From a virus (Duplodnaviria; Heunggongvirae; Uroviricota; Caudoviricetes): DNA of 40,160 nucleotides. Numbering within the stretch: position 1 is the stretch's first letter; each line of letters opens with the position of its first letter. A program made the position numbers. Positions 6,001-9,000 of this stretch are shown piece after piece. Location of the stretch: the IMG/VR virus record IMGVR_UViG_2548876867_000015, positions 1 to 40,160 of that record. One strand, given 5' to 3'.

Positions 6001-9000
6001 TATCAAGGGTTGCTTTAACCGTCTGTGACCCATAACCAACCAAGTCAGATCCAGTTGGCTTGGCTAGCTCGATCAATACGTCAGACGCAGACCCTGATGG
6101 AGGAAGCACAACAATAGGGTTACCATCGTTATCGAAAGCAGGCATCTTGTTTGCGCGGGAGGCAGCATCAGGAAGTTGCGGTATCTGCTCCTGAACGCGC
6201 AAAGTACACCCCAGGTTAGAACTGAGCTGTGTATCAACATAATTTTTAGTGGCTGCATCTTGGGGGGTTGAAGGATCGCGTAAGTTTCTGATGTAATTGT
6301 TAAGCGCATCATAATAATTTGCCACGAATGACGGCTTACGCAGCGCCAAGCTAAACCAACTTCGAACTTGCTGGATCAGCATCGTTAGCTTATCAAAAGC
6401 ATCCTCATGCACTTCTGCAAAGAACTTACCCTGATTACGCAAATCAGTTTCCTGCGTAACCGGGAGCTCTCGTGATATAGAAATCTGATAACCGCTAACC
6501 AATTCCTTCGACAGAATTATATTGCCACCATTGTATCCTCCAGCCCCAGTAACTATGTAATCAGTGTCAAGAATCAGCTCTGTGATGTTCTCGTTCAGGT
6601 CAACAACCTGCACTACTAAATCAGATTTCTGGAAAATTCTGAAGGTATAAGGGAATGTCGTTGTAACACCGTTACCGGTGTATTCGTTGTGGTCAACTTC
6701 GGTTGAGACCGTCATGTTAAATCTCCAGATAGTCGCAGCACCCGTTGCGCCGCATATCCGGTTATTCTATTACCTGAAAAACCACATATGGATATATAAT
6801 CCATGAATACGAACAGATATTACCTTTCAGGTGATTCGCAAAACGTGCTGGATAGCAAACAAATTATTTGATACTGTATATTTATACAGTTATTGCATGG
6901 AGAAGATAAGATGCAGCAGTATCACTATCCACTGGAAGACGGATTTACCGAAAGGATTCACACGCCGGGAGGCGTCAGGTCACTGGTGGAGGGATCGCAC
7001 TTGATGAAATTACTCCGGGATCTCGATAAGGATGGATTTAATGTCGATGGCCCACTTGCCGAACTGACTGCACTGATTAACTACGTCACCAGCTCACAGA
7101 TGTCTATGCGGGATCTGCAAACACATCTCGACTATTGTGCCGAACAATTACGAAAACAAACCAGATAAGGTTTGCAATTACCAAGTGGAGTGCTTATATT
7201 TACCTTTTCGGTAAATTTACATCGCACTCCTCTTGTGCCATAGTAATCGGGCACTGGCAAAATCCAGTGCCGGGATTGGCGTCCCGAGTTACTAAGTGGC
7301 GCATACCACGCCAGACGTGGTTTTTTTATGCGTTAAGCACAGCTATATCCGAATTATGGTGGGCTGGGCAGGGGTCCGAAAGGACGCCGGTACCACTTAG
7401 GCCGGTACGCCAACCTTGTCCAGTTCACCACCAGTAATTGGCGTTGCGGTGGTGATTAAAATTACTAAGTGGAGATAACCACCATGGCTAATGCTCAAAC
7501 TGCCATCTTCAAATTTGAATCTGTTAACCCTATCCGTTCCATCATTATCAATGGCCAACCATGGTTTGTAGCCCAAGACGTTTGTAGTGCGCTGCGTATC
7601 CAAAACGTCACCCAAGCACTTGAAAAACTGGATGATGATGAAAGGTCTATGTTCAACATAGGGCATGAACATCGTGCAATTTTTGACAGCCGAGTAAAAG
7701 AGATCAACATCATCTCCGAGTCAGGCCTCTACACACTGATCCTCCGCTGCCGCGACGCAGTGACACCAGGCACTATCCCCTACCGCTTTCGTAAATGGGT
7801 TACAGGTGAGGTTCTTCCTCAGATCCGCCGCACCGGAAGTTACATTAAAAACTCGCTCCCGCAGGAAGAACGCATAAAGATGGTTGCCGACCAGGTAGCC
7901 AACGCCACGGCGTCAGCAGTGATGCAGGCGATGAAGATAGAGAACAAAACCTACAGCGCCCCGCTGAAGCCAGGCTACCGCAGCCTGATTCACTCGCCGT
8001 CTGGTGTTCTCGGCCTGACGGAGAACTCACTGCTGATGAATCTGCTGAACCAGTTACAGGAAGACGGGCACGACGTATCGGGCGCGGCGGCGGAGCTGAC
8101 CACCATGTTCTGCTACATCGTCGGTGTGAGCAAATGCCTGCGTGATATCCAGACGCACGCGGAGTACATCAACGACAAAGCAGGGTTCTTCTGACGGGCG
8201 GTGGCACAGGGATGTGCTTCTGACATAATCATTTGCGGTGTGATGTAGATTCACGTAAGATTACCTTAAAGGTAAACCATGTGTTTACATGAGGAGGAGA
8301 TATGGGATTTTGGTTCGCTCGTACAAAAACGAGGGATAATGCACCCAGCCCTCAGGCAAAAAATGCAGAAGTTCCGGCGTCAGCGCAGGTTAACAAGCGT
8401 GGTGGAGTGTATATCTCATCACAGCAAATTTCTGAGCTTCCTGAGGTTAAGGAGATGCGTCGTCTCGCTGCTGCAATTGTTAAACAGGATCTTGCCACTG
8501 TAAGGAAATAGTGTTGTTAGCTCTTCTAATTATCCCCATTCTGGTTAGTGGTTATATTATGATAACCGCTAACCAGTATCATTACTTCCGTTTATACCGA
8601 CATGAAGGCCAGCTTCTTTATATGAAAGTAGCTGCATTAGGTACATATTGCCTTATTGCTTCAGTAATAATTGCAGCCGCTATAAAATATAAATGGCCTG
8701 ATTTTCACCTAGTCCATGATATGGTGGAAACTTTTAATGTAACGTCAAAACCAGAAACAGATAGAATTTACATGTGGCTGCTTCTTCTGTCAGCTACATC
8801 CATTTGCTTCTCTTTGTGTTATGTATCTGCTGTTTGGGTAAAAAATGTTCTTTTTGGTTTTTTTTATAAACGTGATATTTATGAAGGAATATTAGAGGCA
8901 ATGAAAGCCAGAGTATTGCGAAAAACATACTCACAAGGCTCTTTAGACTTGTTATTACTTGATGCAATCGAATCAGATCCAAAGAAACCAATGTTGATTA

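What the first reader, a model, noticed from the sequence alone, without database searches (positions are those of the whole stretch)
7172..7483. Antirepressor has a long structured leader with a terminated short RNA and a sequence complementary to its own RBS
Seen in sequence: a promoter (TTGCAA-17-TATATT) with operator at 7200-7214 lies about 280 nt upstream of the antirepressor ATG. The leader folds on paper into several hairpins and an intrinsic terminator (CCACGCCAGACGTGG plus T7, 7307-7327), which would release a roughly 120-nt RNA. The motif ACTAAGTGG recurs (about 7181, 7291, 7464) and the last copy overlaps the antirepressor RBS (AAGTGGAG); its complement CCACTTAG occurs at about 7393-7400. 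CACCACC (7427) and GGTGGTG (7449) can pair with each other or with AACCACC next to the start codon. Established knowledge: P1 c4 and P22 sar RNAs control antirepressor expression. Inference: antirepressor is gated by attenuation and/or an RNA that masks its RBS.
Basis: partly seen in the sequence, partly recalled or inferred. Interest (0 to 1): 0.7.

Follow-up and report, generated by a model that had tools for sequence, protein, structure and literature searches.

The report
P1-type antisense RNA switch gating antirepressor
The long leader in front of this phage's antirepressor gene is a standard phage P1-style RNA control module: a small antisense RNA cut out of the leader covers the gene's ribosome-binding site, and a short terminated RNA upstream carries look-alike copies of that target. 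It is real and well conserved, but it is a known kind of system.

Summary
The described features are present and far beyond chance. The leader is not a new device. Rfam's curated models find an IsrK-type terminated small RNA (7251-7327, 67 bits) and a C4 antisense RNA (7352-7435, 66 bits), both above their gathering scores.

The layout matches the annotated phage P1 immI region element for element: operator, tandem promoters, a1, b1, terminator hairpin, c4, a2, then b2 on the ribosome-binding site.

Its complement CCACTTAG (7393-7400) is the b' loop of C4.

Across 16 related phage loci plus P1, both trios co-vary three ways. There are 10 b specificities and 4 a specificities. No partner shuffle or permutation matched the cognate pairing.

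The RNA that masks the ribosome-binding site is therefore the processed C4 RNA. The terminated short RNA has the same sense as the target, so it is most likely a target mimic, as shown for Salmonella IsrK.

Verdict: a new member of a known kind, unannotated in this phage group (Uetakevirus). Interest is low to moderate.

The parts
7172..7200 (+). By position it corresponds to P1's repressor-controlled P2c4 (former P51a).
   Evidence: A -35/-10 pair at the same position, with varying sequence, is seen in L001-L004 and L006-L008. P1 has tandem promoters with an operator.
7200..7214 (.). Operator TTACCTTTTCGGTAA, the centre of a longer imperfect palindrome at about 7187-7230. It overlaps the -10/+1 of the upstream promoter and abuts the -35 of the downstream one.
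   Evidence: 12 copies in the window against 0.54 expected. Half-sites are conserved and the spacer varies in L001-L009. phiV10 has perfect 17-bp arms.
7216..7244 (+). Conserved promoter TTTACA-17-CATAGT with a TGn extended -10. It predicts a start at about 7251.
   Evidence: A promoter lies at the same distance from the IsrK 5' end in all 16 relatives. The Rfam c4-a1b1 alignment places CATAGT opposite the -10 of P1's P1c4 (former P51b), TATAGT.
7251..7327 (+). IsrK-type short RNA, the a1b1 element. It comprises hairpin 1 (7251-7270), hairpin 2 (7271-7286), a single-stranded linker and an intrinsic terminator.
   Evidence: Rfam RF01394, 67.2 bits against a gathering score of 50. RF03163 c4-a1b1 scores 44.3 bits, E 4.5e-10, just under its gathering score of 46.7. 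Fold z = -2.9. Hairpin 1 is 99% paired with 6 of 7 pairs compensatory.
7275..7282 (+). a1 (ATTGGCGT), in the loop of IsrK hairpin 2. It has the same sense as a2 and is complementary to a'.
   Evidence: The a1:a' pairing is 95.8% paired across 17 sequences, 4 of 7 pairs have changes on both sides, and 0 of 500 shuffles reach this.
7291..7299 (+). b1 (ACTAAGTGG), single-stranded. It has the same sense as b2 and is complementary to b'.
   Evidence: Cognate b':b1 duplexes average -11.1 kcal/mol against -3.8 for non-cognate, over 10 specificities, with 0 of 50000 permutations as good.
7305..7327 (+). Intrinsic terminator: ACCACG-CCAGA-CGTGGT plus a T run.
   Evidence: Present in all 17 sequences.
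7328..7335 (+). 3' arm of a conserved outer helix that pairs with 7297-7304 and encloses the terminator. It can form only in read-through transcripts.
   Evidence: The helix is predicted in most of the 17 sequences, with different arm sequences: GCGCAU/AUGCGU, GCACAUA/UAUGUGU, GCGACAA/UUGUCGC, and in P1 CGGACA/UGUCCG. The permutation test gives 3 of 20000 (the arm extraction was noisy).
7352..7435 (+). C4 antisense RNA (extent of the Rfam match). By alignment with the annotated P1 c4 RNA, the mature RNA is predicted as about 7358-7432. It would have a 5' GGU and a 3' ACCA tail.
   Evidence: RF01695, 66 bits against a gathering score of 45. Fold -43.6 kcal/mol, z = -5.0. The closing stem is 100% paired across 17 sequences with 6 compensatory pairs.
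7393..7400 (+). b' (CCACTTAG), in the loop of C4 hairpin 2.
7407..7413 (+). a' (ACGCCAA), the single-stranded segment between hairpin 2 and the closing stem of C4.
7437..7444 (+). a2 (ATTGGCGT). It sits at the tip of a hairpin (7425-7455) whose outer 5' arm is the 3' strand of the C4 closing stem.
   Evidence: The a':a2 pairing is 95.8% paired, 4 of 7 pairs are compensatory, and 0 of 500 shuffles reach this. The hairpin is predicted in all 17 sequences, and its inner flanks co-vary.
7464..7472 (+). b2 (ACTAAGTGG), overlapping the Shine-Dalgarno GGAG at 7471-7474.
   Evidence: Cognate b':b2 duplexes average -11.3 against -4.9 kcal/mol, with 0 of 50000 permutations as good. b2 overlaps the Shine-Dalgarno sequence or start codon in nearly all 17 loci; in CP-1639 and VT2-Sakai it lies just upstream of the Shine-Dalgarno sequence.
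7484..8194 (+). Antirepressor gene (236 aa) with an N-terminal Bro-N domain.
   Evidence: Pfam PF02498, E 5.7e-20. PHROG anti-repressor Ant, E 1e-56. The homologue in phage ZX5 promotes lytic growth when overexpressed (PMC9782041).

Best explanation
The leader is a phage P1/P7-type immI module in an epsilon15/phiV10-like podophage (Uetakevirus). The proposed sequence of events is below, with each step marked as shown or inferred.

1. Two tandem promoters flank a repressor operator and transcribe the leader. *The sites are shown; their activity is inferred.*
2. Many transcripts stop at the intrinsic terminator (7305-7327). This gives a 77-nt IsrK-type RNA that displays a1 in a hairpin loop and b1 in a single strand. 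*Inferred from homology with Salmonella IsrK.*
3. Read-through transcripts contain the C4 RNA. RNase P probably cuts before G7358, releasing an RNA of about 75 nt with a tRNA-like ACCA end. *Inferred from P1.*
4. C4 pairs through b' and a' with b2 and a2 on the antirepressor message. b2 covers the Shine-Dalgarno sequence, so translation of the antirepressor is blocked, and transcription may be reduced secondarily. *The complementarity and its three-way co-variation are shown; repression is inferred from P1.*
5. The IsrK-type RNA has the same sense as the target, so it competes for C4 and would relieve repression. The balance between termination and read-through would then help set antirepressor output. 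*Inferred from the Gifsy-1 IsrK experiments.*
For: - **Family matches.** The Rfam gathering-level hits are isrK at 7251-7327 and C4 at 7352-7435. c4-a1b1 falls just under its threshold (44.3 against 46.7 bits).
- **Same order and spacing as annotated P1.** The P1 record lists Oc4, P2c4, P1c4, a1, b1, c4 RNA, a2, b2 and the first gene. P1's own leader also matches isrK, including the terminator-like hairpin (35 bits, E 1e-5).
- **Tandem arrangement is general.** Fourteen of the 15 fetched relatives carry isrK and C4 in tandem above the gathering scores. SW-37 has C4 above it and an IsrK-like sequence below it.
- **Three-way co-variation of the a trio.** The sets are GGCGT/ACGCC, GGTCT/AGACC, GAGAC/GTCTC, and TGACAG/CTGTCA in P1. 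Both a1:a' and a':a2 are 95.8% paired with 4 of 7 compensatory pairs, and 0 of 500 shuffles reach this.
- **Three-way co-variation of the b trio.** There are ten b specificities. Cognate duplexes are about 6-7 kcal/mol better than non-cognate ones, with 0 of 50000 permutations as good.
- **Target position.** b2 overlaps the Shine-Dalgarno sequence or start codon in nearly all loci.
- **Folding.** C4 folds with z = -5.0 and the whole leader with z = -5.2.
- **Literature.** The P1 mechanism and RNase P processing at a GGW motif are summarised in PMC5320573. In Gifsy-1, IsrK acts in trans to activate antirepressor translation, and a processed RNA (STnc1160) lies downstream. The G28/G31-C159/C162 pairs proved there appear, from the Rfam isrK consensus numbering, to fall within a1 and a' (my inference; PMC4825925).
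Against: - There are no expression data for this phage. RNA ends, RNase P cleavage, repression and the decoy role are all inferred from homology.
- The gene P1 has between c4 and ant (icd) is absent here, and so is Gifsy-1's orf45. Any mechanism that depends on translational coupling cannot be carried over.
- In Gifsy-1, constitutive expression of the downstream RNA did not counteract IsrK. A simple titration picture may therefore be incomplete.
Confidence: 0.82

Rival explanations
1. One reading: the terminated short RNA of about 120 nt is itself the regulator that masks the antirepressor's ribosome-binding site, and/or the terminator works as a simple attenuator.
For: The terminator is real and conserved. 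A short RNA is expected. Read-through is needed for any antirepressor expression from these promoters.
Against: The short RNA carries ACTAAGTGG and ATTGGCGT in the same sense as the sites at the ribosome-binding site, so it cannot pair with them. The only complementary boxes lie in the C4 RNA downstream of the terminator. No conserved antiterminator alternative was found. The upstream strand next to the terminator pairs instead with sequence beyond the U run, which forms too late to affect termination.
Confidence: 0.05
2. The Gifsy-1 IsrK mechanism taken literally. The long transcript folds into an inactive structure through a1:a' pairing in cis. The short RNA opens it in trans, and the antirepressor is translated only by coupling to a small upstream reading frame (orf45).
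For: The RNA family and gene order are the same. The experiments are in PMC4825925. Cis a1:a' pairing is possible here as well.
Against: The reading frame that starts at ATG 7356 stops at the b' TAG (7398-7400) after 14 codons, 84 nt before the ant start codon. In ZX5 the same frame runs 37 codons, so it is not conserved. Here b2 sits directly on the ant Shine-Dalgarno sequence, as b2 does on the icd ribosome-binding site in P1.
Confidence: 0.1
3. P4 CI-type control. The C4-like RNA acts mainly on transcription. By pairing with a1/b1 and a2/b2 on nascent RNA it causes premature termination, rather than blocking translation.
For: The authors of PMC4825925 note that IsrK resembles P4 seqA and that the downstream RNA resembles CI. 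b1 lies 6 nt upstream of the terminator stem. In P1, translational repression is known to reduce ant transcription secondarily (established knowledge: Biere, Citron and Schuster 1992; not re-read here).
Against: b2 overlaps the Shine-Dalgarno sequence or start codon in nearly all loci compared. That positional constraint is expected for translational masking, not for termination control. This rival may well act in addition to masking.
Confidence: 0.2
4. The repeats and complements are chance matches in a GC-balanced leader.
For: Allowing one mismatch, ACTAAGTGG occurs about as often as chance predicts across the whole window (6 found, 6.0 expected). The 7180 copy is of this kind.
Against: The three-way co-variation across 17 sequences, with 10 b specificities and 4 a specificities, is never matched by shuffles or permutations. 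Two curated covariance models hit above their gathering scores.
Confidence: 0.01

Closest known systems
Phage P1/P7 immI region (c4 antisense RNA, a1/b1 and a2/b2 sites, icd-ant operon)
   Same: - The order of elements is the same: operator, two tandem promoters, a1 in a hairpin loop, b1, a terminator-like hairpin, c4, a2, then b2 on the ribosome-binding site of the first gene.
- The spacings are similar. a1 to b1 is 16 nt here against 14 in P1. The C4 end to a2 is about 5 against 4. b2 to the start codon is 12 against 11.
- The RNA family is the same (C4: 66 bits here, 68.8 in P1).
- The 5' GGU and the 3' CCA-like tail are shared.
   Different: - There is no icd gene; b2 sits directly on the antirepressor's own Shine-Dalgarno sequence.
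- The antirepressor is a 236-aa Bro-N protein, not P1 Ant1/Ant2.
- The operator is a palindrome, TTACC-N5-GGTAA. It is unlike the 17-bp site annotated as Oc4 in the P1 record, which from prior knowledge is an asymmetric C1 operator.
- The host phage is a 40-kb integrating podophage, not a plasmid prophage.
- The a and b sequences differ, giving a different specificity.
Salmonella Gifsy-1 IsrK / STnc1160 / orf45-anrP locus (Hershko-Shalev et al. 2016, PMC4825925)
   Same: An IsrK-family terminated small RNA (67 bits) lies directly upstream of a processed RNA and an antirepressor gene on the same strand. The short RNA has the same sense as the target and is complementary to the downstream RNA.
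   Different: There is no orf45 equivalent (14 codons here), and no isrJ downstream. The target site is on the antirepressor's own ribosome-binding site.
Satellite phage P4 CI RNA with seqA/seqB/seqC
   Same: A small RNA processed from an untranslated leader pairs with repeated sites upstream and downstream of itself on the same transcript (and established knowledge).
   Different: P4 CI controls transcription termination of replication genes, not translation of an antirepressor. Homology to P4 was not tested here.
Phage P22 sar RNA
   Same: A small RNA limits antirepressor synthesis.
   Different: sar is transcribed from the opposite strand across the ant ribosome-binding site. Here the regulator is encoded on the same strand upstream, and no minus-strand promoter-like site was found in 6700-8600.

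Membership tests
C4 antisense RNA (Rfam RF01695; P1/P7 c4) | Scores above the family's curated gathering score with the full-length covariance model | tested here: met
   66.0 bits against 45, model positions 1-87 of 87, at 7352-7435.
C4 antisense RNA (Rfam RF01695; P1/P7 c4) | Long closing stem enclosing two hairpins, supported by compensatory changes | tested here: met
   The minimum-energy fold equals the Rfam consensus, z = -5.0. The closing stem is 100% paired in 17 sequences, and 6 of its 17 pairs have changes on both sides.
C4 antisense RNA (Rfam RF01695; P1/P7 c4) | Loop b' and segment a' are complementary to b2 and a2 downstream on the same strand, with b2 on the ribosome-binding site of the first gene | tested here: met
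   b' 7393-7400 pairs with b2 7465-7472 (8 bp, -12.6 kcal/mol). a' 7407-7413 pairs with a2 7438-7444 (7 bp). The Shine-Dalgarno GGAG is at 7471-7474.
C4 antisense RNA (Rfam RF01695; P1/P7 c4) | Second copies of the targets (a1, b1) upstream of c4 | tested here: met
   a1 at 7275-7282 and b1 at 7291-7299. They co-vary with a' and b'.
C4 antisense RNA (Rfam RF01695; P1/P7 c4) | 5' end made by RNase P from a longer transcript (GGW start, CCA-like 3' tail) | not testable with these tools
   The sequence features are present: AAUUAU|GGU at 7358 and ACCA at 7430-7433. Cleavage itself needs an experiment.
C4 antisense RNA (Rfam RF01695; P1/P7 c4) | Controls an antirepressor operon | tested here: met
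   The downstream gene is a Bro-N antirepressor. The ZX5 homologue promotes lysis when overexpressed.
P1 immI operon organisation | An icd-like first gene translationally coupled to ant | tested here: not met
   No reading frame lies between C4 and ant. The ant start codon is 12 nt after b2.
IsrK small RNA (Rfam RF01394) | Scores above the gathering score: two 5' hairpins, a linker and an intrinsic terminator | tested here: met
   67.2 bits against 50, model positions 1-77 of 77, at 7251-7327. The fold agrees with the model.
IsrK small RNA (Rfam RF01394) | An upstream small reading frame (orf45) coupling translation to the antirepressor | tested here: not met
   The frame from ATG 7356 ends at 7400 after 14 codons, 84 nt before the ant start.
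IsrK small RNA (Rfam RF01394) | The short RNA activates antirepressor translation in trans | not testable with these tools
   Shown only for Gifsy-1.
c4-a1b1 motif (Rfam RF03163) | Scores above the gathering score | tested here: not met
   44.3 bits against 46.7, E 4.5e-10, at 7238-7290. This is a near miss. The same model hits P1 (51 bits) and the Stx-phage loci (50.5 bits), where it overlaps isrK.
P22 sar-type antisense control | The regulator is transcribed from the opposite strand across the ant start region | tested here: not met
   No minus-strand promoter-like site in 6700-8600. The complementarity is supplied by a same-strand element.

The most novel reading that the evidence does not exclude
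The terminated IsrK-type RNA may be a dedicated sponge for C4. It could also be fed by SOS-induced transcription.

A consensus LexA box (6874-6889) sits upstream of an 85-aa gene. No terminator was detected between that gene and the a1b1 element. After DNA damage, read-through from this promoter would flood the cell with a1b1 decoys, titrate C4, and release the full-length antirepressor.

That would couple the SOS response to antirepressor synthesis at the RNA level, in addition to the small LexA-controlled paralogue of the antirepressor.

Separately, the independent reshuffling of the a and b boxes among near-identical phages would give a combinatorial immunity code.
Probability: 0.15. Interest if true: 0.55.

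Novelty: new member of a known kind. Interest (0 to 1): 0.25.

Why it matters
- **Annotation.** It explains how this phage group (Uetakevirus: phiV10, ZX5, HEMP4 and relatives) keeps its antirepressor silent. It places two unannotated RNA genes in the region. Related leaders occur in 405 of 5426 complete E. coli genomes, and the rows listed by the search show only the protein gene annotated there.
- **Link between two literatures.** The comparison also makes plain that Salmonella IsrK corresponds to the a1b1 element of the P1 immunity system, and that the processed RNA downstream of it corresponds to c4.
- **Limits.** The mechanism itself has been known since the 1990s, so the finding improves annotation and offers a convenient set of natural specificity variants. 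It is not a discovery of a new kind of system.

Tried and rejected
- **The 7180 copy of the repeat.** It has one mismatch and lies in a promoter spacer. It reads ACCAAATGG in relatives whatever their b box is. Rejected as part of the system.
- **AACCACC at the start codon pairing with GGTGGTG.** Not conserved. Rejected.
- **A protein-coding reading of the leader.** This covers the mechanical ORFs 7135-7437 and 7296-7400 and the frame from 7356. Indels are not in multiples of three, the frame is open for 37 codons in ZX5 but 14 here, and RNA co-variation is strong. Rejected.
- **A separate promoter for C4 between 7328 and 7357.** No promoter-like site was found. P1 c4 is annotated as coming from the upstream promoters.
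- **Counting b-box pairs on the MAFFT alignment.** The b columns are out of register by one because loop lengths differ. I used duplex-energy matrices and permutation tests instead.
- **Automatic extraction of the arms around the terminator.** It picked the wrong hairpin start in several sequences. That matrix is only rough support; the per-sequence folds are clearer.
- **Papers.** The RNase P paper (Hartmann 1995, PMC41593) is not held. Its content is cited second-hand from PMC5320573.
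Full report
**Where the window comes from.** The region matches Escherichia phage HEMP4 at 98% and phiV10-like phages (genus Uetakevirus) at 92-95%. The local gene order is as follows:
- a tail-spike gene on the minus strand (4622-6715);
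- an 85-aa gene (6911-7168);
- a 315-nt non-coding leader;
- a 236-aa gene starting at ATG 7484.

The 236-aa product has a Bro-N domain and matches phage antirepressor families.

**Check of the observation.**
- The promoter TTGCAA-17-TATATT lies at 7172-7200.
- The inverted repeat at 7200-7214 is a genuine operator. TTACC-N5-GGTAA occurs 12 times in the window against 0.54 expected. In nine related phages it sits at the same place with conserved half-sites and a freely varying spacer.
- The terminator (stem 7305-7310/7316-7321 plus T7) is detected by the scan. It is present in all 17 sequences compared.
- ACTAAGTGG occurs exactly at 7291-7299 and 7464-7472. Its complement CCACTTAG is at 7393-7400.

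Two details do not hold.
- The copy at 7180 has a mismatch, lies in a promoter spacer, and does not change together with the others in relatives.
- AACCACC at the start codon is not conserved.

One addition changes the size of the short RNA. A second promoter, TTTACA-17-CATAGT (7216-7244), is the one found at a fixed distance from the structured RNA in all relatives. The Rfam c4-a1b1 alignment places its -10 opposite the -10 of P1's P1c4 (former P51b) promoter. It predicts a start at about 7251 and a 77-nt terminated RNA.

**What it is.** Scanning the whole window against Rfam at curated thresholds gives three hits. Apart from a tRNA, they are isrK (RF01394) at 7251-7327 (67.2 bits, threshold 50) and C4 antisense RNA (RF01695) at 7352-7435 (66 bits, threshold 45). 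The c4-a1b1 model (RF03163, 'a1, b1 targets of C4 antisense RNA') matches 7238-7290 at 44.3 bits, just below its threshold of 46.7. In Stx phages and in P1 it overlaps the isrK match. IsrK and the a1b1 element are therefore the same thing.

The fully annotated P1 record lists, in order:
- the C1 operator Oc4;
- promoters P2c4 and P1c4;
- a1 and b1;
- the 77-nt c4 RNA;
- a2 and b2;
- icd and ant.

The window has the same order with nearly the same spacings. P1's own leader also matches the isrK model through its terminator-like hairpin (35 bits, E 1e-5).

- a1 ATTGGCGT (7275-7282), in the loop of the second IsrK hairpin;
- a' ACGCCAA (7407-7413);
- a2 ATTGGCGT (7437-7444).

**Comparative test.** A sensitive search with the leader found 257 phage records. 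I fetched 15 of them from Escherichia, Enterobacter, Klebsiella, Hafnia, Yersinia, Salmonella and Stx phages, and added P1. All have C4. Fourteen have isrK above threshold, and the fifteenth has an IsrK-like sequence below it.

Written out side by side, the boxes change together.
- *The a sets.* They are GGCGT/ACGCC, GGTCT/AGACC, GAGAC/GTCTC and, in P1, TGACAG/CTGTCA.
- *The b sets.* There are ten different b sequences, and in each phage b1, b' and b2 match one another.

The counts on the 17-sequence alignment bear this out.
- a1:a' and a':a2 are each 95.8% paired, with 4 of 7 pairs changed on both sides. No shuffle out of 500 reaches this, and sliding the partner by 1-3 columns drops pairing to 18-57%.
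- For b, the alignment columns were out of register, so I used duplex energies. Cognate b':b1 averages -11.1 kcal/mol against -3.8 for non-cognate. Cognate b':b2 averages -11.3 against -4.9. The cognate pair is the best in its row for 9 of 10 specificities. No permutation out of 50000 does as well (full matrix).
- b2 overlaps the Shine-Dalgarno sequence or the start codon in nearly all loci.
- The internal structure is also supported. Overall, 85% of cells are paired and 22 pairs show compensatory change. The C4 closing stem is 100% paired.
- Fold z-scores are -5.0 for C4 and -5.2 for the whole leader.

**How it most likely works.** *Shown here:* the sequence elements, their structure, and the three-way co-variation, which demonstrates selection for C4 pairing with both the upstream and the downstream sites. 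*Taken from P1:* c4 is cut from a longer transcript by RNase P at a GGW motif, and b' occludes the ribosome-binding site while a' adds specificity (summarised in PMC5320573; annotation).

The window has AAUUAU|GGU at 7358 and a tRNA-like ACCA at 7430-7433. From these I predict a mature RNA of about 7358-7432 that blocks antirepressor translation.

The terminated IsrK-type RNA has the same sense as the target and cannot mask the ribosome-binding site. It can only bind C4. In Gifsy-1, short IsrK activates antirepressor translation in trans, and a processed RNA (STnc1160) lies downstream. The base pairs proved there (G28/G31 with C159/C162) appear, from the Rfam isrK consensus numbering, to fall within a1 and a'; that assignment is my inference (PMC4825925). 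The most likely role here is a target mimic that relieves C4 repression.

Two things differ from the models.
- There is no icd gene, unlike P1.
- There is no orf45, unlike Gifsy-1. The frame from ATG 7356 stops at the b' TAG after 14 codons, while the same frame is open for 37 codons in ZX5, where it is annotated as a protein.

Control here is therefore direct, on the antirepressor's own Shine-Dalgarno sequence. A P4-like effect on termination cannot be excluded and may add to it.

**The CACCACC/GGTGGTG pairing.** This pairing is real. The 3' strand of the C4 closing stem (7425-7432) can instead pair with 7448-7455. That builds a hairpin with a2 at its tip. The inner stem flanking a2 has different, complementary sequences in different phages, and P1 has three compensating changes in the outer stem. 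The hairpin and the C4 closing stem exclude each other within one transcript. The whole-leader minimum-energy fold chooses the C4 stem. Its role is unknown.

**Novelty.** The kind of system has been known since 1990 and is captured by curated models. The Gifsy-1 paper already compared IsrK with P4 seqA/CI. For this phage group I found no description. The ZX5 paper tests the antirepressor but does not mention any RNA. The phiV10 record marks only a 'terminator'. In the E. coli RefSeq genomes with a related leader (405 of 5426), the eight listed matches show only the Bro-N gene annotated. I rate it a new member of a known kind, with low to moderate interest.

Noticed in passing
window 6874-6889 and 6911-7168: A near-consensus LexA box (CTGTATATTTATACAG) lies 21 nt upstream of an 85-aa gene. 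That gene's product is 43% identical (E 2e-16) to the C-terminal 74 residues of the antirepressor (residues 155-228). Both match PHROG 450, which has no known function. The box is conserved in L001-L004 and L006. This looks like an SOS-inducible short paralogue of the antirepressor. No terminator was detected between it and the a1b1 element.
   Followed up: partly
window 6820, 7200, 8261, 26511, 29468, 29486, 32014, 32076, 34359, 34407, 35119, 35181: Twelve copies of TTACC-N5-GGTAA are scattered over the genome (0.54 expected), several of them in pairs 18-62 bp apart. This recalls the dispersed operators of P1. A 194-aa helix-turn-helix protein (34477-35061) flanked by four of them is the likely repressor. 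It has no peptidase S24 domain, which fits induction through an antirepressor.
   Followed up: partly
window 7297-7304 with 7328-7335: A conserved helix clamps the IsrK terminator hairpin and its U run. It can form only in read-through transcripts, and it ties up the 3' end of b1. The arm sequences differ between phages but stay complementary, in P1 as well. No function is known.
   Followed up: partly
window 7425-7455: A hairpin presents a2 at its tip. Its outer stem uses the 3' strand of the C4 closing stem, so it excludes C4 folding in the same molecule. Co-variation is seen in the inner stem and in P1's outer stem.
   Followed up: partly
window 7165-7490 compared with its flanks (6700-8300): In phiV10-like phages the leader is only 80-89% identical, while the flanking genes are 93-95% identical. 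The a and b boxes occur in at least six different combinations among these close relatives. This suggests exchange or diversifying selection on immunity specificity.
   Followed up: partly
L002 1101-1214 (phage ZX5), equivalent to window 7356-7400: A 37-codon frame lying inside the C4 RNA is annotated in ZX5 as an 'ash family protein'. In the window the same frame is cut to 14 codons by the TAG of the b' box. The ZX5 annotation is probably spurious.
   Followed up: partly
E. coli RefSeq genomes: Related leaders are present in 405 of 5426 complete E. coli genomes, 88 of them at 99% identity or more. In the eight rows listed, only the Bro-N protein gene is annotated under the match.
   Followed up: no
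window 26848-26921: A tRNA gene (73 bits) in the phage genome. The printed alignment shows a CUUCUAA anticodon loop, which would read UCU (Arg), but this was not checked with a tRNA tool.
   Followed up: no
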